Shown here: positions 9,288 through 59,876 of the stretch, piece by piece
Layout: every line of letters begins with the position of its first letter
Numbering within the stretch: the first letter of the stretch is position 1
Source of the DNA: an uncultured Actinomycetota bacterium
GTDB lineage: Bacteria; Actinomycetota; Thermoleophilia; RBG-16-64-13
NCBI GenBank assembly: GCA_963796315.1
Contig: CAWCLH010000020.1
Location: 289,879-353,878, forward strand
DNA: 64,000 nucleotides
Direction of reading: 5' to 3'
The notes under the pieces: model-generated
The model's input: the letters and a program-made list of their open reading frames with translations, nothing else
Told to the model about the DNA's origin: nothing
Database searches by the model: none
Translations under genes and position numbers: made by a program

Positions 9288-9523
9288 TCAGGCCGTCCCT
9301 TGCGGGCGGCCTTGCTGCGTCTGGAGGGCTTGACTTGCGCCGCAGATCCGGGTGAGTCGCACCATCCCTCCCGACGATGACCGGGCTCCTACCCGCCCGG
9401 GCGCACCCAAGCCGGCGGCCGGTAGCGGCGGCGCAGTTCGGGCGATAGACTCCCAGCAAGGACAAACGGCGAAGGCGGTCCATTGGACGAAGGCAGACGA
9501 CCCTGGAGGACGACTACAGGCGG

Positions 9524-10670
9524 GTGTGGGCCGTGAGCGACCTGTCGGGAGCCCCTGCGCCGGACGCCGCCACGCCGGGCGAGGTGCCGCCCCCCGTCGT
9601 CGTCATCATGGCCGGCGGCGCCGGCACCCGGTTCTGGCCGGCCAGCACCCGGCTCCGCCCCAAGCAGTTCCTGCGGCTGCTGGACGACCGCAGCCTCCTG
9701 CAACAGAGCTACGACCGCGCCCGTCTGCTGACCGACCCCGGCCGCATCTTGATATTGACGAGTGCCGACTTCGCCGGTCTGGTGCGGGAGCACCTCCCGG
9801 AGGTGCCCGCGGAGAACGTGGTGGGGGAGCCCATGCGCCGCGACACCGCCGCCGCCGTCGCCCTGGGTGCGCTGCTGACCCGGGCCCGCTTCGGCGACGC
9901 GGTCATGATCGTGCTGACGGCGGACCATCTGATCGACCCTCCGGAGACCTTCCGGCGGGAGATGCTCTCGGCGGCGCGGGCGGCCCGGGCGGAGGGCGCC
10001 CTCTACACCTTCGGCATCCCGCCCAGCTACCCGGCCACCGGCTACGGGTACCTCCATCGGGGCGCCAAGGTCCTGGACGACGACGGCATCACGCACTACG
10101 AGATCCGGGGCTTCCGCGAGAAGCCGGATCTGGAGACCGCCCAGGGCTACCTCGAGTCCGGCGAGTACTGGTGGAACAGCGGCATGTTCGTGTGGTCGGC
10201 CGACACCATACTGACCGCCTTCCAGCGGTTCCTTCCCGGTCACCTCGCCGCCTTGGAGCCCGCCGTGGGGGCGCTGGGCACGGCGGAGGAGGGCGCGGCC
10301 CTCTCTCGGGCGTTCGCCGACCTTCCCTCCATCTCCATCGACCTGGGGGTCATGGAGCGGGCGGAGCAGCGTGCGCATGGTCGCGGCGGACTTCGCCTGG
10401 AACGACTTGGGCGGCTGGTTGGCGGTGGAGGAGTTCTACCTGCCGGACGAGCGGGGAAACCGAGGACGGGGGAGCACCGTCCTCTTGGACGCGGACGATA
10501 ACATGGTGGTGACGGAGGACCCGGACGAGCTGATCGCCCTGGTGGGAGTCAGCAACCTGATCGTGGTCCGTTCTGGTCCGCGCACGCTGATCGTCGACCG
10601 CAGCCGCGCGGAGGAGGTCAAGGAGTTGGTCCGCGGTCTGGACGACGCGGGCCACGGAGAGCACGCGTGA
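9524..10670 (+). CDS. manC: Mannose-1-phosphate guanylyltransferase (GDP-mannose pyrophosphorylase); one apparent frameshift at about 10370
   Basis: ORF 9524..10501 carries MAGGAGTRFWP, EPMRRDTAAA, GYGYL and WWNSGMFVW. The C-terminus (FAWNDLGGW ...) continues in ORF 10371..10670. Confidence 0.85.
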
Positions 10671-10712
10671 TGTGCTCGACAGGGTGCCGGCCATGCCGAA
10701 AAGGAGGGAAGG

Positions 10713-12105
10713 GTGAGCGAGCGGGTGTCCAGCCTGGCGTGCTTCAAAGCCTATGACGTGCGTGGGAGGGTACCCGACGAGCTGAACGAGGAGATCGCCT
10801 ACCTCATCGCCCGTGCCTTCGCCCGGTTCGTCGGGCCTCGCCGCGTGGCCGTCGGCCAGGATATCCGGCCCACCAGCCCCCTGATCGCCGCCGCGACCAT
10901 GCGCGGGCTGACCGACGCGGGCGTCGACGTGGTGGACATCGGCCAGGTGGGCACCGAGATGGTGTACTTCGCCACCTTCGCCCTGGGCCTCGACGGAGGC
11001 ATCATGGTGACGGCCAGCCACAACCCGGGCGACTACAACGGCATGAAGTTCGTCCGCGAGCAGGCCATCCCCCTCAGCGCCGACACCGGGTTGCAGGAGA
11101 TGGAGGCCCTGGTGGTCCAAGCGCTGAACGGCGAGGGTGACCTGGCTCAAGGCAAGGCCGGTGGGACGGTGGAGCAGGTGCGCATCCACGAACAGTACGT
11201 GGAGCACCTGTTGACGTACCTGGACCCGGCCGCGCTCCGGCCGTTGACCATCGTCGCGAACGCCGGGAACGGCATGGCCGGCCCCGTGATCGAGCTGTTG
11301 GAGCCACACCTTCCGCTGGACCTGCTCCCCATGTACGGGGAGCCGGACGGGACCTTCCCTCACGGCATCCCCAATCCCCTGCTGCCCGAGAACCAGGAGG
11401 TGACGTCGGCCGCCGTGCGGGAAGCCGGCGCCGACCTGGGCCTGGCCTGGGACGGGGACTTCGACCGCTGCTTCTTCTTCGATGAGACCGGCACCTTCAT
11501 CGACGGCTACTATCTGGTGGGGTTACTGGCCCTGCACGTCCTGGAGCGGCACCCCGGCGCCAAGATCATCCACGACCCCCGGCTGGTCTGGAACACCATC
11601 GAGCTTGGTGACCGAGGCGGGCGGGACGCCGATCCAGAACAAGAGCGGCCACGCCTTCATCAAGGCCCGCATGCGGGCGGAGGACGCGGCCTACGGCGGA
11701 GAGATGTCCGCACACCACTACTTCCGGGAGTTCTCCTACGCGGACAGCGGCATGATCCCCTGGCTGCTGGTGGCCGACCTGATCAGCCGCACCGGCCGCG
11801 GACTGCACGACCTGGTGGCGGAACGCATGGCCAAGTATCCGGTCAGCGGGGAGATCAACCGCGAGCTGGTCGACGCCGCTCGGGCCATCCGCCGGCTGGA
11901 GGAGGTCTACGGTCCCAAGGCGCTCAAGCTGGAGAAGGTGGACGGGGTCAGCCTCGAGTTCGAGCGGTGGCGCTGCAACGTGCGCTCCTCCAACACCGAG
12001 CCGGTGGTGCGGCTGAACGTCGAGTCCCGCGGCGACGAAGCGTTGATGCGGGAGAAGACCCAGGAGATGCTCGACTTCCTCTGCCGGGAAGGCACGTGCG
12101 AGTAG
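10713..12105 (+). CDS. manB: Phosphomannomutase/phosphoglucomutase; one apparent frameshift at about 11606
   Basis: GTG 10713 after AAGGAGGGAAGG. Active-site [14 protein letters not shown] and metal site [11 protein letters not shown]. The C-terminal domains continue in ORF 11482..12105 ([27 protein letters not shown]). Confidence 0.88.
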
Positions 12106-17339: not shown

Positions 17340-17497
17340 GTCGAGTAGGTGGTCGCCGAGGGCGGGATCGGCCTTGCGAACCTTCGAGTCACCTTCGAGT
17401 CCATGACGGATGGCGCCGCAGCCGGGGACACCCCATCGACGTCCTACCCAGGTGAAGAGGCCGGAGGTGCACCCCGCCTATCTCGCGGCGATCGCCA
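17340..17497 (+). repeat. 158-nt orphan copy of an internal segment of the S1 protease gene (direct repeat of 19529..19686)
   Basis: GTCGAGTAGGTGGTCGCCGAGGGCGGGATCGGCCTTGCGAACCTTCGAGTCACCTTCGAG... aligns base-for-base with 19529..19686 apart from a handful of substitutions and single-base indels. Both ORF tracks show the same peptides (AEGGIGLANLRVTFE). Confidence 0.9.
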
Positions 17498-18926: not shown

Positions 18927-19291
18927 ATTTCCCCTAAGCGGATCGCGCGGTGCGGTCGGCTCATCTGAATACCCTCGGTCGGGCCGGACCGGGCAGCAGA
19001 AGCTCCTGCACCGGTCCTCGATACGATCGGATGAATCGAGCAGGACTCTCCTGGCGCTTCCCCGAAGAGACGAACCTTCTACTTGCCCACTTCAGGGGTA
19101 GCGACAAACTTGATGCGTTCTTGCGCATTTCTTTGGCTAGGAAGCACAGGCTGGTGACAGCGAGTGCCTGCAAGTACCAGAAGTGCACACGCGTCGGAGC
19201 GGTGGTCGCGCCGCGTGCGGCCCGCTTGTGCCTCGCCAGAACAGAGCCCGGGTGTCATGAAGAGTTTCAAGAACGTGCGGAGGGGGGCGTG

Positions 19292-20180
19292 ATGAATCGC
19301 AAGATGATCCGGACCATGGTCCTGTTCGTGGCGGCGCTCGTCGGGGTGCTCGCCATGGGCGCTGTCCCCGCCGGGGCGATCCTCGGCGGGCAGCAGGATA
19401 CCGACAACAGCTACGGCAATGTGGGCATGATCCAATACCGGATGGACGGCGTCTGGAATGTGGACGGCACCACCACCCTGGTCAAGAACGACACTGACGG
19501 GGTTGTCGTCCTCACCGCCGCCCACTGTGTCGAGTGGGTGATCGCCGAGGGCGGGATCGGCCTTGCGAACCTTCGAGTCACCTTCGAGCCCATGACGGAT
19601 GGCGCCGCAGCCGGGGACACCCCATCGACCGTCCTACCCGGTGAAGAGGGCGGAGGTGCACCCCGCCTATCTCGCGGCGATCGCCACGACGCCCTACATC
19701 GGCGACTCTAAGCGGTTCGGGATCGGGCCGGGCCGGGAGGATGCGGCCTTGTTGTGGCTCGACGTCGACGGCCCCATGTCCGATATGCAGACCGCACAGG
19801 TGGTCGGCCAAGATGGGCTGGCTGGGATCGACCGGAAGGACCAGACTTTCACGGTCGTCGGCTACGGCACCAACGGCTTCGTCGCCGGCAACGGCTGGTC
19901 ATTTCGCAACCCCAACACCGTCTCGATCTGGAGCGGACGAAACTACAAGGATGCAACGCTGGTGAGCGTACACGACGCTTTCGGCGATCGCTATCTCAAG
20001 CTGACCTCGACCACCGGCTTCGGCGACTCCGGGGGCCCGACCTTCCTCGGCGATACCCTGGTGGCCCTCACCATCTGGGGGGAAAGCTCGAAATGCACGA
20101 GTCCCTCCTACCAGTACCGGCTGGACACTCCATCGGCGCAGGACTTCCTCCAGACGTATTTGGGCCACTCGCTCGACTGA
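19292..20180 (+). CDS. Secreted trypsin-like (S1 family) serine protease; one apparent frameshift at about 19620-19630
   Basis: ATG 19292 after GGAGGGGGG. Signal peptide MNRKMIRTMVLFVAALVGVLAMGAVPAGA, His motif LTAAHC (ORF 18950..19711); Asp region DAALLWLD and Ser motif GDSGGP in ORF 19599..20180. Confidence 0.85.
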
Positions 20181-20423
20181 CCTGAGAGCACGGGGCGGGA
20201 GTGGACTTTCGTGCCTCCGCCCCCCTCCGCCCCGAAGCACAGGCGGGCACCGTTTCGATAGCCCTGCGACCACCTGCCTGCTCGGGACCGTGGGCCGCAG
20301 ACGACCGCGGGACCAGTTTGGTAGAGTTGCCGCGACCGACAGTGGTCCGCACGGCGGAGGACCGGCACCCGCCAGCTCGTCGTGCTCTTGTCCAACCGTT
20401 TGCCCGAGAGAAGGAGACCCCCT

Positions 20424-20798
20424 GTGGTCGTCAAGCTGCTGATCCGGTGGGTCATCGCTGCAGCCGCGCTCCTCGTCGCCGCCATGATCGTCCCCGGCAT
20501 CCGTATCGAGGGCACGAGCGCCTGGGTCGCCGTCCTGGTGATGGCCGTCATCCTGGGGTTCGCGAATGCCATCATCAGGCCGGTCCTGACCCTCCTCTCC
20601 TGTGGCTGCATCGTCCTGACCCTGGGTCTCTTCATCTTCGTCGTCAACGCGGTGACGCTGTGGATCGCCTCGTGGATAACCGTCAACTGGTTCGGCGTGG
20701 GCTTCTACGTGGACGGTCTCTGGCCGGCGCTTCTGGGCGCGCTCATCGTCAGCATCGTGTCCTTCCTGCTCTCGGTATTGATACCCGGAGACCGGTAG
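20424..20798 (+). CDS. DUF360 / phage-holin-4_2-family small integral membrane protein (about 4 TM)
   Basis: GTG 20424 lies 7 nt after AAGGAG. VVKLLIRWVIAAAALLVAAMIVPGIRIEG...FANAIIRPVLTLLSCGCIVLTLGLFIFVVNAV matches the YvlD/DUF360 pattern as recalled. Confidence 0.7.
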   Translation: MVVKLLIRWVIAAAALLVAAMIVPGIRIEGTSAWVAVLVMAVILGFANAIIRPVLTLLSCGCIVLTLGLFIFVVNAVTLWIASWITVNWFGVGFYVDGLWPALLGALIVSIVSFLLSVLIPGDR

Positions 20799-20816
20799 CC
20801 GGCGGGCCGCGGGACC

Positions 20817-22284
20817 ATGACGTACCTCCGCTACCTCGCCCTCGGCGGGTTCAAGAGCTTCCGCGACTGGAGCCTGCTGGAACTGTCGCCGGCGGTCAAC
20901 GTGATCGTGGGCGGCAACGGCACGGGCAAGAGCACGTTGGTGGAGGCGCTCCTCTGGTGCCTGGGGGAGGAGGACCTGGCGGCCCTGCGCGCCCGGGGAG
21001 CGGACGACCTGCTCTATCGCCCGCCGGCTCGGCCGGCCCAGCGCGATCAGGAGATCGCCCGGCAATCCCTGTTCACGCACGGCGCGGAGGAACGCAGGGC
21101 GGCCCAGGAGGCGACTTGGGCCGCGGAAGCCGCTGGGGTGGAGGAAGCCCGGGTCTACCTGGTGCTGGGGGACGAGAGCGAGCCTGGAGGGGACGCCCCC
21201 GCGGATGAGGAGGCGGACGGGTGTTGTTGCCGGGACACCTCGGCTTCCCGCACCGACCTGCCCCCGGGGAGTCGCCACCGTCGGTCGCACGATCCGGCGG
21301 GACGGCGAGGGAACGCGTCTGCTCGACGGCGAGCCTGCCTCCGAAGAGGCGGTGGCCCAGGCACTTCGACCGTACGGGTTCGACCGCTCGCTGGTGTCGG
21401 TGGTCCGCCAAGGGGAGCTCGAGCGGTTCTTGGTCGCCGGTCCGGCCCTCCGTGCCCGTATCCTGGCCGAATCCGCGGGGATCGAGCTGCGGAGCGAGAG
21501 CCGTCCGCGCTCCGGCCACCCCGGCGATGGGGCGGCGACCGATCGGGAGCGCCTGGTCCGCGCCTGGCTGCGGGAGGACGGGGTGGACCCCGGCCCCGTC
21601 GGCGGCGCGGAGGCGCTGCTGGCGTTGTTGGGCCTCAGTCCTGCGGATGCCGATGCCGGCGGGTCCGGCCGTGCCGAGTCGGAGACGGTGCGCGGGCAGT
21701 TGACGGAGGCGCAGGCTCGGGTCGAGGACCGGTTCCGGCGGTTCTTCCAGCTCTTGGTGCCTGGGGGCGACGTGGCCCTGCCTCTCGAGCTGCCGGAGGA
21801 GCTGGACCGCGCCACCCTCGACGTCCGCGTGGCCTTCCCCTCCGGCGATTGGGAGCCGCTGGAAGGACTCTCCGGCGGCCAGCGCGCGCTGGCCGCCTTC
21901 TCCCTGGGGTTGGCCTTCTTCCTGGAGGCGCCCTCCCGGCTCCTGATCCTGGACGAGGTGGAGCCGGCGCTGGACGAGTCCAACCTCAAGCGCTTCAACG
22001 AGGTGCTCCACGAGGTGGCCCAGAGCCGCCAGGTGATCGTGGTCAGCCACCAGCGGCGCACCAAGGACGTGGGCGATGTGGTCTTCGGCGTGGACCACGG
22101 GGGCTTCGGCGCCTCCACGCTGCACTTCCGTTTCGAACCCGCCACCAAGAAGCTGCTGGTCTTCGGACGCGTGCGCGGCAACTGGCTCGAGCGGACGGCG
22201 GCATTGGGCGGTGAACCGGGGGACGTCTTCGACGCCGGGGCGGCCTCGGCGGAGCCGGGCCCGAATGGCGGCTCCTGTTGCTGA
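20817..22284 (+). CDS. Arm-less SMC-like ABC ATPase A (both head lobes, no coiled coil or hinge), about 488 aa; one apparent frameshift at about 21220
   Basis: N lobe: MTYLRYLALGGFKSF, Walker A VIVGGNGTGKST, VGRTIRRDGEGTRLLDGE, Q-loop VVRQGE (ORFs 20817.. and 21205..22284). C lobe: LSGGQRALAAFSL, LLILDEVEPALDESNLKRF, QVIVVSHQ. Confidence 0.8.
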
Positions 22285-23536
22285 GCATCCAGCGCCTCGT
22301 CCTCCGCGACTTCAAGAGCTTCGCCGGCACCCAGGAGGTGGAGTTCGCGCCGGGGGTCTCCGTGATCGTGGGGCGCAACGCGTCCGGCAAGAGCAACCTG
22401 GTGGACGCGCTTCGTTGGGTCTTCGGCGAAGACCATCTGTCGTCGCTGCGGGTGAGGTCGGCGGGGGAGCTGGTGCACCGGGGGGAGCGAGACGGGCTCG
22501 ACCTGCCGGAGACGGTTGCGAGGTCACGGCGGTCCTCCGCGACGCCGCCGGACAGGACGTGCCGGTCACCCGCCGCCTGCAAGGGGGAGGGGAGTCGCTG
22601 CTCGTGGCCGGGGAGGCGCTCGACCGGCCCGCGTTCCTGCAGCGGCTGCGCCGGCTGGGCCTCACCGCGCCCCTGGCCACCGTCATCCGGCAGGGCGACG
22701 TCGGGCGGGCGCTGTGGCTGCATCCCCGCGAACGGACGGAGCTCTTCCTGGAGCATCTGGGGGAGGGACCGCCGCCTCGGTCGCCCGCGTCGCCCGGTCC
22801 GCGGTCCGCGGGACTCGAACGACGGTTGGAGCGGGAGCGATCGACCCTGCTCGCCTCGCTCGCCGCCCAGAGCCGGGCCCGGTCCGCCGACTCGTCCCCG
22901 GCATTCCGGGCGATGCTCGCCGGCCTGCACCTGCCGGCTCCCGCGGCGACGCCACCCTCGCCGGGGCAGCAGAGAGAGGTGGTGGCCGGTCTCCTCGCCC
23001 TGGAGGATCCGTCATGGAAGGCTGCCACCGGCGTTGGGCCGGACCGGGCGGCCGCGTTGGACCGGGTACACCGCCGGATCGAAGGCCACTTCCGGTCGTA
23101 CCTGGCCACGCTCGTCCCGGGCGCGTCCGCGTCGCTGCCGGTGGTGCCACCCTCGGCCGCGGGGGAACTGCCGGGGATCGGGCTGGCCGTCACGTTCCCC
23201 CGGCGTCCGGCGGTGCACGTGGACGCCCTCTCCGGGGGGCAGCAGGTGACCGTCGGACTGTGCCTGGCTCTGGCTGCGTTTCGAGAGATGCCCTCGCCCG
23301 CCCTGGTCTTGGACGAGGTGGAGCCGGCCCTGGACGACACCATGATCCGCCGGGTCTCGGACCTGCTCCACGAGGTGGGGGCCGAGCGGCAGGTGATCGC
23401 GGTGAGCCACCAACGGCTGATGCGGTACACGGCCGACACCGTCTATCAGTTGGAGCGGGCCCCGGGAGGGGGCAGCCGGGTGGTCTTCCGGTACGATCCG
23501 CGGGCGCTGCGAGGACCTTCGGCTCCGCCGGGCTGA
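22278..23536 (+). CDS. Arm-less SMC-like ABC ATPase B, about 419 aa; one apparent frameshift at about 22512
   Basis: TTG 22278 overlaps the stop of gene A by 7 nt. MLSIQRLVLRDFKSF, Walker A VIVGRNASGKSN, VTRRLQGGGESLLVAGE, VIRQGD. C lobe in ORF 22076..23536: LSGGQQVTVGLCL, ALVLDEVEPALDDTMIRR, QVIAVSHQ. Confidence 0.8.
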
Positions 23537-23720
23537 CCCCACCCCCGGCCTTCGCACTTTTGTCCGGACGGACGAAGATCGCTCCGATTGCTGCCATTCC
23601 TCCGGATCCGGCCCTAGACTGCGCCCGCCTCCTTCCCCCCAGGCAGAGGTGTGGCGGAGCGGTCGCGCTCGGGCGCGGGACCGCCACGGCCCGCAGTCTC
23701 ATCAAAGGAATGCGAACTCC

Positions 23721-24209
23721 ATGCACCAGCCCTTCGACGCGCTCTACCGAGAGCACCACGACGCAGTGCTGCGCTACTTTCTCCGCACCACCAAGAGCCT
23801 CGAGGACGCCGAAGACCTGACCAGCCACGTGTTCGAGAAGGCCTGGCGGGCGTACCGCGGCTTCGAGGACCGAGGCAACAAGGGCGCGCACTGGCTCGCC
23901 CGGATAAGCCGGAACGTCCTGATCGATCACTGGCGGCGGGCGCGGCCGCCGCGCGTCGCCCTCGATGAGGCCCTGCTCGTGGACGAGCGGGCCGACTGCG
24001 AACGCCATCTCTACCGAAGCGACCTTCGCCGTCGGCTGCTCCGCGCCCTCAACGCGCTGACGCCCACCCAGCGGGACGTGGTCCTCTACCGCTGGGTCCA
24101 CGAGTTGAGCATCATCGAAACGGGGGAGCGGCTGGGTATGTCCAGCCTGGCCGTGCGCGCCGCACAGCAACGGGCTTTTTCCACGCTGAGGCTGGCGCTG
24201 GCCGTCTGA
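23721..24209 (+). CDS. ECF-type sigma-70 family RNA polymerase sigma factor
   Basis: ATG 23721 after AAAGGAA. Region 2 (LYREHHDAVLRYFL..DAEDLTSHVFEKAW, WLARISRNVLIDHWRR) and region 4 HTH (LTPTQRDVVLYRWVHELSIIETGERLGMSSLAVRAAQQRA). Confidence 0.85.
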   Translation: MHQPFDALYREHHDAVLRYFLRTTKSLEDAEDLTSHVFEKAWRAYRGFEDRGNKGAHWLARISRNVLIDHWRRARPPRVALDEALLVDERADCERHLYRSDLRRRLLRALNALTPTQRDVVLYRWVHELSIIETGERLGMSSLAVRAAQQRAFSTLRLALAV

Positions 24210-24371
24210 CCCAGCACGTCAGCGCCCCTCTCCGGCTGCGCGGTATCATGGAGTTGGTGACAGACCGTGCTGCTGGGGTCCTCGAGTCGCGCCGCCCTCT
24301 GCCGGATGCTGTGAGTTGCCGGTATGTGGGGATATCCTCAGTACCGTAACCGCGGACAAGGATGGCCGGAC

Positions 24372-25511
24372 GTGGAGGAACGACCGTTTCTGGTGGAAGA
24401 CCTCGAGGCGGTCCTGGAGCAGCAGGCCCCCCGCCGCTTCGCCGAGGCGTGGGACAACGTGGGCCGGCTGGTGGGACATCGCAGCGCCTCCGTCGACCAG
24501 GTGCTGGTCGCCCTCGATCTGACCGAAGACGTGGTGGTGGAGGCGACGAACGCCGGCTACCACGCCATCATCACGCACCATCCCCTGATCTTTCGCCCCC
24601 TCCGGCGGGTGACCGACCACGATCGGGTGGGCCTGCTGGTCACCCAACTCATCCACGCCGACATCGCCCTGATCGCCCTCCACACCAACCTGGACGCGGC
24701 ACCCGGCGGGCTGAACGACCTCGTGGCCGCGGAATTGGGGCTGCTCCACACCGTCCCCTTGGTGCGGGCGCCGGCCGAATGGAAGAAGCTGGTGGGCTTC
24801 ATCCCCCCGGATGCTCTGGATCGGGTCAGCCAGGCGGTCTTCGCCGCCGGCGCGGGCCGGATCGGAGCCTACAGCGGCTGCGCCTTCCAGGCGAGCGGGG
24901 AGGGGACGTTCACTCCCCTGCCCGGGGCGCAACCCCATGCCGGGGTGGTCGGGCGGCGCGAGGAGGTCCACGAGGTGCGCTGGGAGACCGTCGTCCCCGC
25001 CGATTCCGTGGACGCCGTCGTCGTCGCCTTCCTGTCGGCGCATCCCTACGAGGAGCCGGCCTTCGACGTGTACCCGGTGGAGAACGTCGCCGTCCGTGGC
25101 GGGATGGGCCGCGTGGGCGCTCCCCACACCCGGCTCCCACTGGCCTCCCAGGCAGAAGCGGCGGCCGAGGCGTTCGGCCTAAGCCAGGTGGCCTACAGCG
25201 GAGACCCCGACCGCGTGATCGACAAGGTGGCGGTGGTCACCGGGAGCGGGGCGGGTCTCATCGAGGAGGCGGCCCGAGTGGCGGACGTCCTGATCACCGG
25301 CGACCTCAAGTACCATGACGCGGAGCGCGCCTCCGACCTAGGGCTGGCGCTGATCCAGGTGCCGCACGACCACCTCGAGACCTGGGCCATGCGGATGTGG
25401 ACGCGACGGCTGAGGACGGCGCTGGCTCCCTGGGGGGTCGAGGCCCGTTTTTCGACCGCCGGCCGCTCGCCGTGGCGACAGGCCCACACGGTGTCGTCGC
25501 GGGAACGGTGA
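24372..25511 (+). CDS. Nif3-like dinuclear metal centre protein (YbgI/GTP cyclohydrolase 1 type 2 homolog family)
   Basis: ORF 24324..25511. WDNVGRLVG, AIITHHPLIF, ALHTNLDAAPGGLND and DLKYHD motifs. The start (GTG 24372 or ATG 24324) is uncertain. Confidence 0.8.
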   Translation: MEERPFLVEDLEAVLEQQAPRRFAEAWDNVGRLVGHRSASVDQVLVALDLTEDVVVEATNAGYHAIITHHPLIFRPLRRVTDHDRVGLLVTQLIHADIALIALHTNLDAAPGGLNDLVAAELGLLHTVPLVRAPAEWKKLVGFIPPDALDRVSQAVFAAGAGRIGAYSGCAFQASGEGTFTPLPGAQPHAGVVGRREEVHEVRWETVVPADSVDAVVVAFLSAHPYEEPAFDVYPVENVAVRGGMGRVGAPHTRLPLASQAEAAAEAFGLSQVAYSGDPDRVIDKVAVVTGSGAGLIEEAARVADVLITGDLKYHDAERASDLGLALIQVPHDHLETWAMRMWTRRLRTALAPWGVEARFSTAGRSPWRQAHTVSSRER

Positions 25512-26125: not shown

Positions 26126-26199
26126 GCGGATGTAGCTCAGTTGGCTAGAGCGTCTGCTTGCCATGCAGAAGGTCGAGGGTTCGAATCCCTTCATCCGCT
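26126..26199 (+). tRNA. tRNA-Gly (anticodon GCC)
   Basis: Acceptor GCGGATG/CATCCGC, D arm GCTC-AGTTGGCTA-GAGC, anticodon stem TCTGC/GCAGA with loop TTGCCAT, T arm GAGGG-TTCGAAT-CCCTT, discriminator U. Confidence 0.9.
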
Positions 26200-26251
26200 C
26201 CTTCACGGATATGGTGCGCGGGGCCTGCGGGGCCCCGTTCGCGTCTTCCGG

Positions 26252-26323
26252 GGCGCCGTGGCCGAGTGGCTTAGGCACGGGTCTGCAAAACCCGATACAC
26301 CGGTTCGATTCCGGTCGGCGCCT
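26252..26323 (+). tRNA. tRNA-Cys (anticodon GCA)
   Basis: Acceptor GGCGCCG/CGGCGCC, anticodon stem CGGGT/ACCCG with loop CTGCAAA, T arm ACCGG-TTCGATT-CCGGT, discriminator U. Confidence 0.9.
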
Positions 26324-26493
26324 CTCCCTTCTTGTCGCCTCAGCGAAGCGCAGAACTAGACCAAGGTCCGGGGTACGTCCGGCGCTTCCTCTATTACTCT
26401 CCTCGTAGACGGCTTGTTGTTTCAGGCTAGTGGCTGCTGGGCAACTCTTCCGCAACGATGTGTTCGCCGCGTTGAACTAAGGGACGGACGAGC

Positions 26494-44546: not shown

Positions 44547-44687
44547 CTTCGCCTGTGTCCTGGGACACTAAGCCCGACTGCGGTGACGGTCAAGGTTGCG
44601 GAGGGCGTACCGGACGGTCGTCCCGGAGGCGTCCGACCCGGTTGCTATACTCCGAAGCCTTGATCCAAGCGACTTCCGAGAGGCTCC

Positions 44688-46624
44688 ATGAACGTCTTTC
44701 TGCCCGATGGCTCCCCGTTGACCGTCCCGGAGGACGCGACCGTCAGGACCGTGGCCCAGACCATCGGGCCCGGGCTGGCCAAGGCCGCGATCGCCGGGAA
44801 GGTGGGTGACCGGGTGGTCGACCTGACGGCCCCGGTGCACGAAGGCGACCGGGTCGCCATCGTGACGCTGGCTACCCCGGAAGGCATCGATATCCTGCGG
44901 CACTCGTCGGCCCACGTCCTCGCGGAGGCGGCCACGCGGGCCTACCCGGGGACCAAGGTGGCCATCGGTCCGGCGATCAAGGACGGCTTCTACTACGACT
45001 TCGAGTTCCCCCAGCCCATCACCGAGGAGGACCTGGCCCGCATCGAGCAGGAGGCCAACCGGGCGATCAAGGCGCGGGAGCCGTTCGAGCGGCGCGAGGT
45101 CACCAGGGAGGAGGCGCTCGCGCTGTTCGCCGACGAGCCCTACAAGACGGAGATCATCGACGAGCTGCCCGAGGGCTCCATCATCAGCCTCTACCGCCAG
45201 GGCGACTTCCTCGACCTGTGCCGGGGCCCGCACCTGCCGGACACCGGGCGCATCCCGGCCTTCAAGGTGCTCTCCACCGCCGGCGCCTACTGGCGGGGCG
45301 ACGCCCAGCGGCCCATGCTCACCCGCATCTACGGCACCGCCTTCCCTTCGAAGAAGGACCTGGAGGACCATCTGGCCCGGCTGGAGATGGCCAAGCCAGC
45401 GCGACCACCGGAAGCTGGGCCGGGAGCTGGACCTCTTCAGCTTCCACGACGAGGGCCCGGGGTTCGTCTTCTTTCACGCCCGGGGCATGCGGGTGATCAA
45501 CGCCCTGCTGGACTACTGGCGGCGAGGAGCACCGCCGGGCGGGCTACGAGGAGATCAAGACGCCCATCATCCTCGATCGGGCGCTGTGGGAGCGCTCCGG
45601 CCATTGGGACAACTACAAAGACAACATGTACTTCACCCAGATCGACGACATGGACTTCGCGGTGAAGCCCATGAACTGCCCGGGCGGCATCCTGGTCTAC
45701 AAGTCCGAGCAGCACTCCTACCGGGACCTCCCCCTGCGCATGGCGGAGCTGGGCCTGGTCCACCGGCACGAGCTGAGCGGGGTGCTGCACGGCCTGATGC
45801 GGGTGCGCTCCTTCACCCAGGACGACGCCCACCTCTACTGCCTGCCCGGGCAGGTGGAGGACGAGGTGCTGGCCGTCATCGCCCTCACCCTGCGCATGTA
45901 CCGCACCTTCGGGTTCGAGAACGTCCACTTGGAGCTGTCCACCCGCCCCGAGAAATCCATCGGCACCGACGAGATGTGGGCCACCGCCGAAGGGGCCCTC
46001 ACCTCCGCTTTGGAGCGCAGCGGGCTGGAGTACACCCTCAACCCGGGCGACGGCGCCTTCTACGGCCCCAAGATCGACTTTCACATCGAGGACGTCATGG
46101 GCCGCACGTGGCAGTGCGCCACCTGCCAACTGGACTTCGCCATGCCCGAGCGCTTCGACATGGAGTACGTGGGCGAGGACAACCAGCGTCACCGCCCCGT
46201 CATGATCCACCGCACCGTGCTGGGGAGCATCGAGCGGTTCTTGGGCATCCTCATCGAGCACTACGGCGGCGCCTTCCCGACCTGGCTGGCCCCGGTGCAG
46301 GCGGTCGTCATCCCCGTGGCCGATCGGCACAACGAGTATGCCTGGGAGGCGCGAGAGGAGCTCTTCCGCGCCGGGCTGCGGGTCGAGGTCGACGCGCGGA
46401 CCGAATCCGTGGGGCGCAAGATCCGGGACAACGAGATGCTGAAGGTGCCGTTCATGCTGATCGTGGGCGACCGCGAGGTGGACGCCGGCAACGGTGTCGG
46501 TCCGCTCCCGCGCCGACGGCGACCTGGGCGGCTCGGAGCCGGCAGGAGGCGGTCACGCTCCTGCTCGAGGCGGCCGAGGTGCCCGGCGGCGACGTGGACC
46601 GCCGAGTCGACGCTGGACGGTTGA
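44688..46624 (+). CDS. thrS: Threonine--tRNA ligase; at least four apparent frameshifts (about 45396, 45522, 46490, 46535); 3' end uncertain
   Basis: TGS domain and editing domain ([10 protein letters not shown]) in ORF 44688... [13 protein letters not shown] is reached after the first shift. The class II core is in ORF 45626.. ([52 protein letters not shown]). The anticodon-binding domain follows (VVIPV...[12 protein letters not shown]). Confidence 0.9.
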
Positions 46625-58207: not shown

Positions 58208-58668
58208 GTGCTGGGCAAGCGGCGCAGGCAGGATCTGATCCGGACGGTGGTGACCCAGCAGCGGGTGGGGACCCAGCTGGAGATGGTCGAGGCCCTGCGC
58301 GCGATCGGCTGCGACATCACGCAGGCCACCATCAGCCGCGACCTGCGGGAGCTGGGTCTGCTGAAGCGCCGGGACCGCAGGGGCCGGCCGCGTCTACGTC
58401 CTGCCGGAGACGGAGACCCGCCGCGACCCGGAGGCCGCCTGCAGCCGCATGCTGCAGGAGTTCGCCACCGCGGTCCTGCCGGCCCAGAACCTGGTGCTGC
58501 TCAAGTCCGAGGTGGGCACCGCCCCGGGCATGGGCCGGGCGATCGACGAACTCGAGCATGAGCTGCATCCTGGGCTGCGTGGCCGGGGATGATACGGTGC
58601 TGATCGTGACGGAAGACGCCGCGGCCGCGCAGGCCCTGGCGGAGTATCTGGAACAGCTGGGAGGCTGA
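58208..58668 (+). CDS. argR: Arginine repressor; two apparent frameshifts at about 58385 and 58555
   Basis: GTG 58208. [48 protein letters not shown], then VYVLPE..., then [31 protein letters not shown] (stop 58668). Confidence 0.85.
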
Positions 58669-58672
58669 CCGA

Positions 58673-59876
58673 ATGCCCAAGGAGACGTGTGTCCTCGCCT
58701 ACTCTGGCGGTCTCGATACCTCGGCCATGATCCCCTACCTGCAAGAGGGGTACGGCGTGGACGTGATCGCCGCCCTGGTCGACGTGGGCCGGGCCAAGGA
58801 CCTGGAGGCTCTGCGCGAGCGCGCTCTGAAAGCCGGAGCCGTGGACGCGGTGATCATCGACGCGCGGGAGGAGTTCGCCCAGGACTTCGCCCTGGAGGCC
58901 CTCAAGGCCAACGCGCTCTATGAAGAGAAGTACCCGCTGGTATCCGCCCTCTCTCGGCCGCTCATCTGCAAGAAGATGGTGGAGTTGGCCCACGAGCGGG
59001 GAGCCACCGTCATCGCGCACGGCTGCACGGCCAAGGGCAACGATCAGGTGCGCTTCGACGTCTCCATCCGCTGCCTGGATCCCTCGCTCACCATCCTGGG
59101 GCCGGCCCGGGAGTGGGGGATGACCCGGGAGGAGATCCTGGACTACTCGGCCGCCCGCGGCATCGAGATCCCCCTCAGCAAGAAGAACCCCTTTTCCATC
59201 GACGAAAACCTCTGGGGGCGCACCATCGAGTGCGGCGAGCTGGAGGATGCCTGGACCACGCCCTCCGGCCGAAGCCTACACGGTGACGGCCGACGCCCGG
59301 CAGGCTCCGGACGAGGGGGTCGAGGTCGTCGTCTCGTTCGACCACGGCACCCCGGTCGCCCTCGACGGTGAGGCCTTGGGCCTGGCCGAGTTGGTCGACC
59401 GCATCGACGAGATCGGCGGACGGCACGGCTTCGGCCGGGTCGACATGATGGAGAACCGGCTGGTGGGCATCAAGAGCCGCGAGATCTACGAGGTCCCGGG
59501 CGCGCTGGCGCTGATCAAGGCGCACAAGGAACTGGAAGACCTCACCCTGACCCGCGACCTCATCCACTTCAAGCGGGGGGTCGAGCAGAAGCTGGCCGAC
59601 ATGATCTACGACGGGCAGTGGTTCGACCCGCTGTCCGACGCGCTGCGCGCCTTCGTCAACGAGAGCCAGCGGTACGTCACCGGCGACGTCCGCCTGCTCT
59701 TCTACAAAGGGTCCTGCACGGTCATGGGCCGGCGCTCGCCGCACTCCCTCTATCTCCAGGAACTGGCCACCTACAGCACGGGCGACACCTTCAGCCACGA
59801 GGCGGCGAAGGGCTTCTGCCAGCTGTGGGGCCTGCCGCTCGAGGTCTGGGGCCGGCGCGAGATGGGGCTCATCTAG
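58673..59876 (+). CDS. argG: Argininosuccinate synthase; one apparent frameshift at about 59265
   Basis: VLAYSGGLDTS (PP-loop), AHGCTAKGNDQVRF, SIDENLWGRTIE, ENRLVGIKSREIYE. Confidence 0.92.

What the first reader, a model, noticed from the sequence alone, without database searches (positions are those of the whole stretch)
20424..23536. Cluster of a DUF360/holin-like membrane protein and two overlapping arm-less SMC-head ATPases (best candidate for a previously undescribed system)
Genes A (20817..22284, about 488 aa) and B (22278..23536, about 419 aa) overlap: the TTG start of B lies 7 nt inside the end of A. Each encodes a complete SMC-type ABC head. The N lobes carry LxLxGFKSF, Walker A (VIVGGNGTGKST / VIVGRNASGKSN), the R.I.RDG-type strand and a Q-loop (VVRQGE / VIRQGD). 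The C lobes carry the signature LSGGQ(RALAA / QVTVG), Walker B plus D-loop (LLILDEVEPALDESN / ALVLDEVEPALDDTM) and an H-loop (IVVSHQ / IAVSHQ). In SMC, MukB, JetC, RecN and Rad50/SbcC the two lobes are separated by hundreds of residues of antiparallel coiled coil plus a hinge or zinc hook. Here only roughly 70-130 Ala/Arg/Pro/Gly-rich residues separate them, so no arm or hinge can exist. A conserved-looking tandem pair suggests an obligate heterodimeric head-only ATPase. An 18-nt gap upstream on the same strand links them to a 4-TM DUF360 (phage_holin_4_2-type) protein, hinting at a membrane-associated complex. No kleisin, nuclease, toxin or other known partner is adjacent. An ECF sigma factor without an anti-sigma follows 185 nt downstream. 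I know of no characterised system with this composition.
Basis: partly seen in the sequence, partly recalled or inferred. Interest (0 to 1): 0.85.

Follow-up and report, generated by a model that had tools for sequence, protein, structure and literature searches.

The report
Paired short-armed SMC-like ATPases with cysteine tail
Two overlapping genes encode a conserved pair of SMC-type ATPase heads that have almost lost their arms and belong to an undescribed family marked by a Cys-Cys C-terminus; they may work with metals or thiols rather than fold chromosomes, and the neighbouring membrane gene is not part of the unit.

Summary
Genes A (20817-22284) and B (22278-23536) are real, overlap by 7 nt, and each encodes a complete SMC-type ABC head with only about 85-115 residues between the lobes. 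Each has one frameshift in a G run (21266-21269; 22480-22485). These are almost certainly assembly errors, because thrS, argG and manC in the same window are also split and short-read assemblies of homologues are intact. The A/B pair, with its start/stop overlap, recurs in at least five lineages of Thermoleophilia-like Actinomycetota. The DUF360 gene sits upstream only in this window. In four of the five lineages the neighbour is an ArsP_1 permease, with thioredoxin-like genes in three. A and B are sister paralogues of a single-gene 610-640 aa form (S). Together they group with a large family of about 326-aa arm-less heads from Desulfobacterota, away from canonical SMC. A, S and the small family end in Cys-Cys-COOH (119 of 120 small members). 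No curated family or paper describes them. Best reading: an ATP-sandwich heterodimer of a cysteine-tailed SMC-head family, possibly acting in metal, metalloid or thiol handling (inferred, unproven). It is not a DUF360-linked membrane system or a defence system. New variant of a known kind; interest moderate to high.

The parts
20817..22284 (+). Gene A: SMC-head ABC ATPase, 488 aa after removing one G. It has an A-specific N-lobe insert (residues about 66-107), a Cys-rich loop and a Cys-Cys C-terminus.
   Evidence: Pfam SMC_N 125.6 bits. TIGR02168 175 bits for the heads only. AlphaFold2 pLDDT 81, pTM 0.77. Foldseek best matches are bacterial Smc heads 5h68 and 4i99, TM 0.81-0.84. Intact homologues P0002-P0010 are 48-57% identical in alignment A1.
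21266..21269 (+). Frameshift site in A: a GGGG run with one base too many.
   Evidence: Removing one G gives ...GCCCRDTSASRTDLPPGVATVGRTIRRDGEG..., which is colinear with homologues (...GCCCKPS..EVPEGLITVKR...).
20910..20936 (+). A Walker A motif (GGNGTGKST).
   Evidence: Read from the sequence. K38 is invariant in 29 aligned sequences.
21222..21230 (+). A Cys-Cys-Cys motif (GCCCR), lying in a disordered N-lobe loop.
   Evidence: C136 is invariant in the A family. The single-gene form has CKHG[HN] at this position. pLDDT is below 50.
21868..21882 (+). A signature motif LSGGQ.
   Evidence: invariant.
21940..21975 (+). A Walker B and D-loop (LLILDEVEPALD).
   Evidence: D379 and E380 are invariant.
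22045..22053 (+). A H-loop (SHQ).
   Evidence: H411 is invariant.
22276..22284 (+). A C-terminal Cys-Cys followed by the TGA stop. The TTG start of B (22278-22280) lies inside these codons.
   Evidence: A terminal CC is shared with most A homologues, with all full-length single-gene forms, and with 119 of 120 small-family members.
22278..23536 (+). Gene B: SMC-head ABC ATPase, 419 aa after adding one G. It has no Cys motifs and ends ...YDPRALRGPSAPPG.
   Evidence: Pfam SMC_N 130 bits. AlphaFold2 pLDDT 83, pTM 0.76. Homologues P0056-P0063, P0021-P0023 and P0064 are 41-61% identical over the best BLASTP alignment.
22480..22485 (+). Frameshift site in B: a G6 run with one base missing.
   Evidence: Adding one G gives ...ELVHRGGARRARPAGDGCEVTAVLRD..., colinear with B homologues.
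22371..22397 (+). B Walker A motif (GRNASGKSN).
23228..23242 (+). B signature motif LSGGQ.
23303..23335 (+). B Walker B and D-loop (LVLDEVEPALD).
20424..20798 (+). DUF360 / Phage_holin_4_2 membrane protein. It is a neighbour 18 nt upstream and probably not part of the unit.
   Evidence: PF04020 E 2e-27. Absent from all other A/B, single-gene and small-family loci. In Priestia a homologue sits next to a PspC-domain gene.
23649..24209 (+). ECF-type sigma factor. It is a neighbour, is not conserved next to the pair, and is probably not part of the unit.
   Evidence: TIGR02937 85.4 bits against a cut-off of 42.9. No sigma homologue in any related locus.

Best explanation
A and B are functional, translationally coupled tandem paralogues, and the two frameshifts are assembly errors.

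Each protein is a catalytically complete SMC-type ABC head. Its coiled-coil arm has shrunk to a short helical stub with a conserved LLxxLGLP tip. The most likely arrangement is a 1:1 heterodimer that closes on two ATP molecules, as other SMC/ABC heads do (inferred from the fold and motifs).

The pair arose by duplication within a rare actinobacterial family of 610-640 aa single-gene SMC-like proteins (S). That family is sister to a widespread family of about 326-aa arm-less heads. The mark of this superfamily is a Cys-Cys-COOH tail. A keeps the tail and also has a CCC loop; B has lost both.

Because of these cysteines and the recurrent ArsP_1 permease, thioredoxin-like and CobW neighbours, I propose that ATP-driven head engagement is coupled to binding, hand-over or redox switching of a metal, metalloid or thiol ligand at the cysteine tail, and not to DNA loop handling. 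I give this functional step about 35%; it is inferred and not shown.

The DUF360 and ECF sigma genes are chance neighbours in this genome.
For: Fold and catalytic completeness:
- Full head motifs; K, Q, SGG, DE and H are invariant across 29 sequences.
- SMC_N at 126 and 130 bits.
- The family profile matches the B. subtilis Smc head 3zgx at E 1e-104.
- The AlphaFold2 models have heads at pLDDT above 90, and Foldseek matches Smc heads at TM 0.81-0.84.

Pair conservation:
- A and B overlap by 4-7 nt in L001, L002, L011, L013, L008/L090 and L091.

Frameshifts as artefacts:
- Both lie in G runs.
- thrS, argG and manC are also split in this window.
- Homologues on short-read contigs are intact.
- In another contig_-named (probably long-read) assembly, L008, A is split at a different site.

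Evolution:
- In neighbour-joining trees A, B and S are each 100% supported.
- A+B+S is 100%, A+B is 61-89%, and (A+B+S+small family) against 23 SMCs is 98-100%.
- MAG FR_37 carries both the pair and S.

Cysteine tail:
-. The literature links Cys-Cys-COOH tails in HgcB, SaoC and DUF466 to metal handling and to transporters.

Neighbours:
- ArsP_1 sits next to A/B in 4 of 5 lineages, with thioredoxin-like genes in three.
- The small family lies among cobW, Thioredoxin_3, TSCPD, CxxCxxCC and RACo genes.

DUF360:
- Found only in the window.
Against: - There is no direct evidence that A and B bind each other, and no multimer prediction could be run.
- The heads are closest to true Smc and keep the arginine-finger position (L57, R58 nearly invariant). 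A DNA-stimulated ATPase is therefore not excluded.
- The window itself has no ArsP_1, thioredoxin or CobW gene within 64 kb.
- In S-type loci the ars-like cluster lies about 7 kb away with unrelated genes in between, so part of the association could be inherited synteny.
- The terminal CC is missing from some A homologues (P0004, P0006, P0009, P0010, P0011).
- With the A/S profile, canonical SMCs score as high as the small family, so the superfamily grouping rests on neighbour-joining trees of 318 columns plus the shared tail.
- The 18-nt spacing makes co-transcription with DUF360 likely in this genome.
Confidence: 0.5

Rival explanations
1. A/B is a minimal DNA-acting SMC-like or RecF/RecN-like ATPase. 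The ATP-engaged heterodimeric heads clamp DNA for repair or nucleoid organisation, and the cysteines only form a structural zinc site.
For: The heads are closest to bacterial Smc. The arginine-finger position is conserved. Short-armed DNA-binding relatives such as RecF and RecN exist (established knowledge). Even the canonical-locus smc is shortened to 702 aa in a contig from the same ENA assembly series as related loci, taxon not determined.
Against: No DNA-repair, kleisin, nuclease or replication gene is a conserved neighbour in any of the A/B, S or small-family loci. The recurrent neighbours are permeases, thioredoxin-like proteins and metallochaperone-type GTPases. RecF, RecN and Rad50 models score far below their cut-offs.
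Confidence: 0.2
2. One reading: DUF360 (holin-like), A and B form a membrane-associated system, for example an abortive-infection or MADS/Lamassu-like defence module with the holin-like protein as effector.
For: There is an 18-nt gap on the same strand. The best PADLOC hit for both proteins is mad3 of the MADS system, E 8e-39 and 1e-37. DUF360 belongs to a holin superfamily.
Against: DUF360 is absent from every other locus with the pair. The surroundings are housekeeping genes: PGM, metX/metW, G6PD, NIF3, tRNAs. No other MADS component is nearby, and the MADS authors' detection model requires MAD6-8 (bioRxiv 10.1101/2023.03.30.534895). The mad3 score is lower than the score to true SMC (132 against 175 bits). 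The family is vertically conserved with stable synteny, which is unlike defence islands.
Confidence: 0.07
3. A and B are decaying pseudogenes: the two frameshifts are real and the pair is non-functional in this organism.
For: Both genes carry a frameshift in the deposited assembly, and the public gene calls are the 310-aa and 325-aa fragments P0001 and P0055.
Against: Essential genes (thrS, argG) in the same window are frameshifted too. Both sites are homopolymer runs. All catalytic motifs and the full length are otherwise intact, with no stop codons after a one-base repair.
Confidence: 0.07
4. A/B are head-only modulators of the host's own Smc, like C. elegans SMCL-1: they bind Smc heads or ScpA and tune condensin activity.
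For: SMCL-1 is a precedent for a head-only SMC-like regulator (PMC5373644). A and B have high head similarity to Smc.
Against: Unlike SMCL-1, A and B keep all ATP-hydrolysis residues. The conserved partner is the paralogue, not smc or scpAB. No smc or scpAB gene lies in the window or in related loci.
Confidence: 0.05

Closest known systems
Bacterial Smc (TIGR02168; head structures 3zgx, 5h68, 4i99)
   Same: Same head fold and the same motif set: FKSF, Walker A, Q-loop, LSGGQ, Walker B/D-loop, H-loop. Bacterial Smc is the best sequence and structure match.
   Different: About 85-115 residues separate the lobes instead of roughly 700. There is no hinge (PF06470 not hit) and no adjacent kleisin. 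A/B is a heterodimeric pair, whereas Smc is a homodimer. A has extra Cys motifs. The TIGR02168 score is 119-175 bits against a cut-off of 567.
About 326-aa arm-less SMC-head family of Desulfobacterota and Bacillota, annotated only as 'AAA family ATPase' or 'chromosome segregation ATPase'
   Same: Head-only architecture and a C-terminal Cys-Cys-COOH. It groups with A/B/S against canonical SMC in neighbour-joining trees. Thioredoxin_3-type neighbours are shared.
   Different: It is a single gene with no stub or LLxxLGLP tip and no CCC/CKHGH loop. It lies in corrinoid-methyltransferase and CobW clusters. Identity to A is only 24-26%.
Single-gene 610-640 aa SMC-like protein (S) of Thermoleophilia-like MAGs
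   Same: Same clade (100% bootstrap). It shares the K[TP]CC end, the FEPxT(K/R)xLxxF extension, the LLxxLGLP tip and the DEVEPALD D-loop.
   Different: One gene, presumably a homodimer. Its arms are about 60-75 residues per strand. It has CKHGH where A has CCC. Its fixed synteny is LysR-S-serA.
MAD3 of the MADS defence system (PADLOC PDLC04135)
   Same: A short SMC_N-type ATPase: the profile has 374 positions and gives a near full-length match (positions 5-341 for A) at E 1e-37 to 1e-38.
   Different: No other MADS genes are nearby. The score is lower than the score to true SMC. The setting is housekeeping, not a defence island.
RecF and RecN (short-armed SMC-like DNA-repair ATPases)
   Same: Reduced or absent coiled coil and an ABC-type head dimer (established knowledge).
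   Different: The models score 26-44 bits against cut-offs of 172-408. There is no recF or recN synteny, and those proteins are not paired paralogues.
SMCL-1 of C. elegans (PMC5373644)
   Same: An SMC-derived protein that lacks hinge and coils.
   Different: SMCL-1 has lost its catalytic residues and regulates condensin, whereas A and B keep all of them. It is eukaryotic and of independent origin.
Cys-Cys-COOH proteins (HgcB, SaoC, DUF466 YbdD/YjiX)
   Same: An invariant terminal Cys-Cys preceded by Lys or Arg. They occur next to transporters or corrinoid systems, and a role in metal or organometal handling has been proposed.
   Different: There is no homology. These are small ferredoxin, lipoprotein or DUF466 proteins, not ATPases. 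The comparison applies to the tail only.

Membership tests
Pfam SMC_N (PF02463) superfamily | Whole-protein score above the gathering cut-off (40 bits), covering both the N and C lobes. | tested here: met
   A 125.6 bits, B 130 bits.
Canonical bacterial SMC (TIGR02168) | Equivalog score of at least 567 bits. | tested here: not met
   A 175 bits, B 119 bits; only head stretches are matched.
Canonical bacterial SMC (TIGR02168) | Long antiparallel coiled coil (about 300 or more residues per strand) and a hinge domain (PF06470). | tested here: not met
   85-115 residues lie between the lobes. There is no PF06470 hit, and AlphaFold2 shows only short helices.
Canonical bacterial SMC (TIGR02168) | Works with the kleisin ScpA and with ScpB. 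| not testable with these tools
   No scpA or scpB among the genes annotated within about 10 kb of the pair, and none is called next to the pair in related loci. The rest of the genome cannot be read.
MADS defence system (MAD3) | Match to the mad3 profile. | tested here: met
   E 7.8e-39 and 1.3e-37, but the score is below the score to SMC.
MADS defence system (MAD3) | Co-located MAD6, MAD7 and MAD8 (mandatory in the authors' detection model) together with methyltransferase and kinase genes. | tested here: not met
   The neighbours are DUF360, an ECF sigma factor, NIF3, G6PD, a trypsin-like protease and MetX/MetW. The requirement is stated.
RecF / RecN / Rad50-SbcC | Equivalog score above the cut-off. 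| tested here: not met
   RecF 34-44 bits against 172; RecN 26-31 against 408; Rad50 55-60 against 700; SbcC 28-31 against 478.
Cys-tailed SMC-head family (unnamed; S + A/B + about 326-aa forms) | Groups with the family and apart from canonical SMC in a head-domain tree. | tested here: met
   Bootstrap 98-100% in neighbour-joining trees on 318 columns. Caveat: this is a distance method with limited outgroups.
Cys-tailed SMC-head family (unnamed; S + A/B + about 326-aa forms) | C-terminal Cys-Cys-COOH. | tested here: met
   A ends ...GGSCC. B does not, and the whole B subfamily lacks it.
Cys-tailed SMC-head family (unnamed; S + A/B + about 326-aa forms) | Neighbourhood with ArsP_1, Thioredoxin_3 or CobW genes. 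| tested here: not met
   None in the 64-kb window. Present in 4 of 5 other A/B lineages.
ABC-type ATP-sandwich heterodimer | Both partners keep Walker A Lys, Q-loop Gln, the signature motif, Walker B Asp-Glu and H-loop His. | tested here: met
   All are invariant in 29 sequences.
ABC-type ATP-sandwich heterodimer | Physical A-B interaction. | not testable with these tools
   No multimer prediction or experiment was possible. The only support is the conserved 4-7 nt gene overlap.
DUF360 / Phage_holin_4_2 (PF04020) | Score above the gathering cut-off. | tested here: met
   96.3 bits against 28.8.

The most novel reading that the evidence does not exclude
SMC-type heads have been repurposed, in a family spanning Desulfobacterota, Bacillota and Actinomycetota, into ATP-driven machines that handle a metal, metalloid or thiol-redox ligand. 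The ligand would be carried on a flexible Cys-Cys-COOH tail, by analogy with HgcB or MerA tails or the bridging-metal sites of dimerising P-loop ATPases. The A/B pair would be the first heterodimeric version, in which the cysteine site (CCC loop plus CC tail) is confined to one subunit.
Probability: 0.3. Interest if true: 0.8.

Novelty: new variant of a known kind. Interest (0 to 1): 0.6.

Why it matters
SMC-family ATPases are known as DNA-handling machines that depend on long arms. These results point to conserved SMC-derived heads that have almost or entirely lost their arms, and that carry an invariant Cys-Cys C-terminus. The group includes a bacterial heterodimeric pair. Its members sit among permease, thioredoxin-like and metallochaperone genes. 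That would mean the SMC head can work as a stand-alone ATP switch outside chromosome biology.

The family is tractable. The proteins are small, intact homologues are available, and the Cys-to-Ser, metal-content and DNA-dependence tests are simple. It also offers a natural series of arm lengths (0, about 25, and about 70 residues, and a 702-aa smc at the canonical locus) for asking what the arms are for.

If the function turns out to be ordinary DNA repair, the finding reduces to a rare short-armed SMC paralogue.

Tried and rejected
- My first repair of the frameshifts, at 21221/21223 and 22514/22517, was wrong for A. Homologue alignment moved the sites to the G runs at 21266-21269 and 22480-22485.
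- I considered the Metallophos gene upstream of A in L002, L011 and L033 as an Mre11/SbcD-like partner and rejected it. It is only 242 aa, travels with Acr3 even where no SMC-like gene is adjacent (L019), and is absent from other lineages.
- I considered DEVEPALD as a family-specific D-loop and rejected it. It occurs sporadically in canonical SMCs and in only 36 of 120 small-family members.
- Proteins of 270-470 aa among the B-search hits looked like other head-only forms, but they are N-terminal fragments of canonical SMCs.
- Promoter and terminator scans of 19800-24400 found nothing, so the operon structure is unresolved.
- The exact-product look-up for P0001 found no contig, so the source record and the rest of the genome could not be read. 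A canonical smc-scpAB set could not be confirmed for this organism.
- The MADS preprint gave no domain description for MAD3 in the sections read.
- The published version of Haft & Gwadz (PMC9879109) is not held, so I used the preprint.
- No paper describing these families was found.


Full report
**1. What is in the sequence**

The window is high-GC DNA (65-74% GC). On the + strand it holds, in order:
- a DUF360/Phage_holin_4_2 gene (20424-20798; PF04020, E 2e-27);
- gene A (20817-22284);
- gene B (22278-23536);
- an ECF-type sigma gene (23649 or 23722 to 24209).

A and B overlap by 7 nt: the TTG start of B lies inside the last Cys codons of A. The DUF360-A gap is 18 nt.

Each gene changes reading frame once. 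My first repair points were only approximate. Alignment with intact homologues puts the lesions in homopolymers. A has an extra G in the GGGG run at 21266-21269, and B lacks a G in the G6 run at 22480-22485. Repair gives proteins of 488 and 419 aa that are colinear with their relatives.

**2. The frameshifts are almost certainly assembly errors**

- Essential or core genes in the same window are split in the same way. thrS has TGS/SAD domains in one frame and the catalytic core in another, at 44664-46624. argG is split at 58610-59876 and manC at 9449-10670.
- PGM and a trypsin-like gene also look split.
- The public gene calls for this contig are the fragments P0001 (310 aa) and P0055 (325 aa), on a 1.33-Mb contig.
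- Homologues on short-read contigs (NODE_, k141_, Logan, JGI) are intact.
- Other contigs with 'contig_' names, or of megabase size, carry breaks at different places: A in L008 and L005, and the Metallophos gene in L001. A conserved programmed frameshift is therefore unlikely.
- That the source is a long-read metagenome assembly is my inference from the contig size and naming.

**3. What the proteins are**

- Both match Pfam SMC_N well above its cut-off (126 and 130 bits against 40).
- The best NCBIfam model is bacterial SMC, but it matches the heads only (175 and 119 bits against a cut-off of 567). RecF, RecN, Rad50 and SbcC score far lower.
- A profile of the family finds the B. subtilis Smc head 3zgx at E 1e-104.
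- The AlphaFold2 models (A: pLDDT 81, pTM 0.77; B: pLDDT 83, pTM 0.76) have confident heads. Foldseek ranks bacterial Smc heads first (5h68, 4i99; TM 0.81-0.84), ahead of cohesin and condensin heads, Rad50 and RecN.
- Between the lobes A has about 85 residues and B about 110. These are modelled at low confidence as two to four short helices.
- This stretch is not a featureless linker. An LLxxLGLP motif at its centre is conserved in A, B and the single-gene relatives. I therefore read it as a vestigial arm with a conserved tip.
- Walker A Lys, Q-loop Gln, the SGG signature, Walker B Asp-Glu and the H-loop His are invariant in all 29 aligned sequences. Neither ATP site is degenerate.

**4. Relatives and evolution**

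Searches of 5.8 billion proteins found few close relatives.
- A-type proteins are 483-641 aa and B-type 378-504 aa.
- A single-gene type, S, is 609-643 aa and is annotated at most as 'AAA family ATPase' from Thermoleophilia or Actinomycetota MAGs.
- In a library of 1.84 billion representatives, only about 18 A/S-type representatives score above the canonical-SMC plateau. The subfamily is rare.

The A/B pair recurs with a 4-7 nt overlap in at least five lineages:
- the L002/L011/L001 group;
- FR_37 (L013);
- L008/L090;
- L091;
- this window.

S has a fixed synteny, LysR-S-serA-ilvCNBD. MAG FR_37 carries both the pair and S, so the two are paralogous.

Arm length varies between A homologues by whole-segment deletions, and the window's A is the shortest.

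Neighbour-joining trees on 318 head columns give:
- A, B and S each 100%;
- A+B+S 100%;
- A+B as sisters 61-89%;
- A/B/S together with a family of about 326-aa arm-less heads, against 23 canonical or short SMCs, 98-100%.

This is a distance method with a limited outgroup. With the A/S profile, canonical SMCs score as high as the small family, so I treat the deep grouping as probable and not settled.

**5. The cysteine tail**

- A ends in ...GGSCC and has a GCCCR loop, with C136 invariant in the A family.
- S proteins have CKHG[HN] in that loop, and all full-length ones end in K[TPSIC]CC.
- The small family has at least 570 clusters, mostly from Desulfobacterota MAGs. It ends in Y[KR]CC in 119 of 120 listed members.
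- B proteins lack both motifs.
- The CCC loop and the tail are disordered in the model.
- No NCBIfam model covers A, S or the small family, and no paper was found on them.
- Cys-Cys-COOH ends have been noted in SaoC, HgcB and DUF466 (YbdD/YjiX). There they are discussed in connection with heavy-metal or organometal chemistry and with adjacent transporters (preprint 10.1101/2022.07.06.499078; review PMC13188914). This is an analogy for the tail only.

**6. Gene neighbourhoods**

- DUF360 and the ECF sigma gene were found next to the pair only in this window. They were in none of the other loci fetched.
- In Priestia a DUF360 homologue sits beside a PspC-domain gene. This fits an independent envelope-stress role, which is also what I recall for B. 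subtilis yvlD (my own knowledge).
- The window's surroundings are housekeeping genes: PGM, CN-hydrolase, metX/metW, G6PD, NIF3, an RNase H-like gene and tRNAs.

In the other four lineages the pair lies next to an ArsP_1 permease, with thioredoxin-like genes in three of them:
- ArsR-Trx3-ArsP_1-Acr3-Metallophos-A-B, with gaps of 14-34 nt (L002, L011, L001, L096, L097);
- ArsP_1-Trx-DsbD-A-B (L013);
- a divergent Trx3-ArsP_1 pair (L008, L090);
- ArsP_1, a 148-aa gene, then A-B (L091).

The small family sits among cobW, several Thioredoxin_3 genes, TSCPD, CxxCxxCC, RACo and URO-D genes.

The Metallophos gene travels with Acr3 even without the pair (L019), so it is not a specific partner.

In S loci the ars-like cluster is about 7 kb away. 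Part of the signal could therefore be inherited synteny.

**7. Mechanism**

Shown:
- two complete SMC-type heads;
- vestigial arms;
- conserved gene coupling;
- family placement;
- cysteine motifs;
- neighbourhood pattern.

Inferred:
- a 1:1 A-B heterodimer that engages on two ATP molecules, with tip-to-tip contact through the LLxxLGLP stubs;
- restriction of the cysteine site to A after the duplication;
- coupling of ATP-driven engagement to binding or hand-over of a metal, metalloid or thiol ligand.

I put the structural and evolutionary part at high confidence and the functional part at about one in three. The main rival is a minimal DNA clamp of the RecF or Smc kind, and the Smc-like heads and conserved arginine-finger position keep it alive. 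I judge a defence role, a DUF360 membrane complex, SMCL-1-like regulation of Smc and pseudogenisation each to be unlikely, for the reasons given in the rival entries.

**8. Comparison and novelty**

- The pair belongs to the SMC_N superfamily.
- It fails the defining features of canonical SMC (score, arms, hinge).
- It fails the features of MADS (no partner genes) and of RecF, RecN and Rad50 (scores).
- Head-only SMC relatives are not unprecedented: the small family, the mad3 profile and SMCL-1 all exist.
- A conserved bacterial heterodimeric pair with a cysteine-tailed subunit, and the cysteine-tailed family as a whole, appear undescribed.

I rate it a new variant of a known kind, with interest 0.6.

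Noticed in passing
window 44664-46624 (thrS), 58610-59876 (argG), 9449-10670 (manC), 10671-12100 (PGM), 18950-20180 (trypsin-like): Several core genes are split between two reading frames, as A and B are. That is at least seven frameshifts in 64 kb, which indicates an indel-prone (probably long-read) assembly rather than gene decay.
   Followed up: partly
L180 5001-7109: On a contig from the same ENA assembly series as some related loci (taxon not determined), the gene at the canonical smc position (smc-ftsY-ffh-rpsP-rimM-trmD-lepB) is only 702 aa and has no hinge-domain hit. Other SMC-like proteins of 724-840 aa turned up in the same search, including one from Gaiellaceae (P0042, P0026). Arm shortening may therefore also affect the housekeeping SMC in such lineages.
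   Followed up: partly
L022 10001-10972; L024 9998-10990; L025 6193-7173; L093 7001-7990; L095 7001-7984; L103, L104, L106: There is a large family (at least 570 clusters) of about 326-aa arm-less SMC heads that end in Y[KR]CC. They are embedded in clusters with cobW, several Thioredoxin_3 genes, TSCPD, CxxCxxCC, a small zinc-ribbon protein, RACo and URO-D (corrinoid methyltransferase) genes. No curated family covers them.
   Followed up: partly
window 20595-20612 (DUF360 residues about 58-63): The window's DUF360 protein has SCGC in a predicted membrane helix where four homologues have SLP[LV]T or GCAV. This is an unusual intramembrane CxC, reminiscent of the CSC motif seen in the ArsP_1 permease that sits next to the pair in other genomes. 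The comparison rests on only five sequences.
   Followed up: partly
window 17340-17497 and 19529-19686: A 158-nt direct repeat (93% identity, spacing 2189 nt) brackets the minus-strand G6PD gene. The second copy lies inside the trypsin-like gene exactly where its reading frame appears to change. This could be a paralogue fragment or a mis-assembly.
   Followed up: no
window 21012-21137 (A residues about 66-107): The A subfamily has an insertion in the N lobe, modelled as two helices (H74-83, H90-107; pLDDT 63-82), that is absent from B, from S and from canonical SMC. It is much longer in P0007.
   Followed up: no
P0013 (458 aa, Logan contig): This protein has an A-type N half and a B-type C half (it ends ...YNPRLLRGPSAPARAR). 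It is either an assembly collapse between the two paralogues or a natural A/B fusion.
   Followed up: no
L006, L009, L014-L021, L023, L098, L099: The single-gene S form has strictly conserved synteny (LysR-type regulator, then S, then convergent serA-ilvC-ilvN-ilvB-ilvD). In about half of the loci an ArsR-Trx3-ArsP_1-Acr3 cluster lies about 7 kb upstream.
   Followed up: partly
window 26126-26324: tRNA-Gly(GCC) and tRNA-Cys(GCA) lie just downstream of the NIF3 and RNase H-like genes. There are six tRNA genes in the window in all.
   Followed up: no
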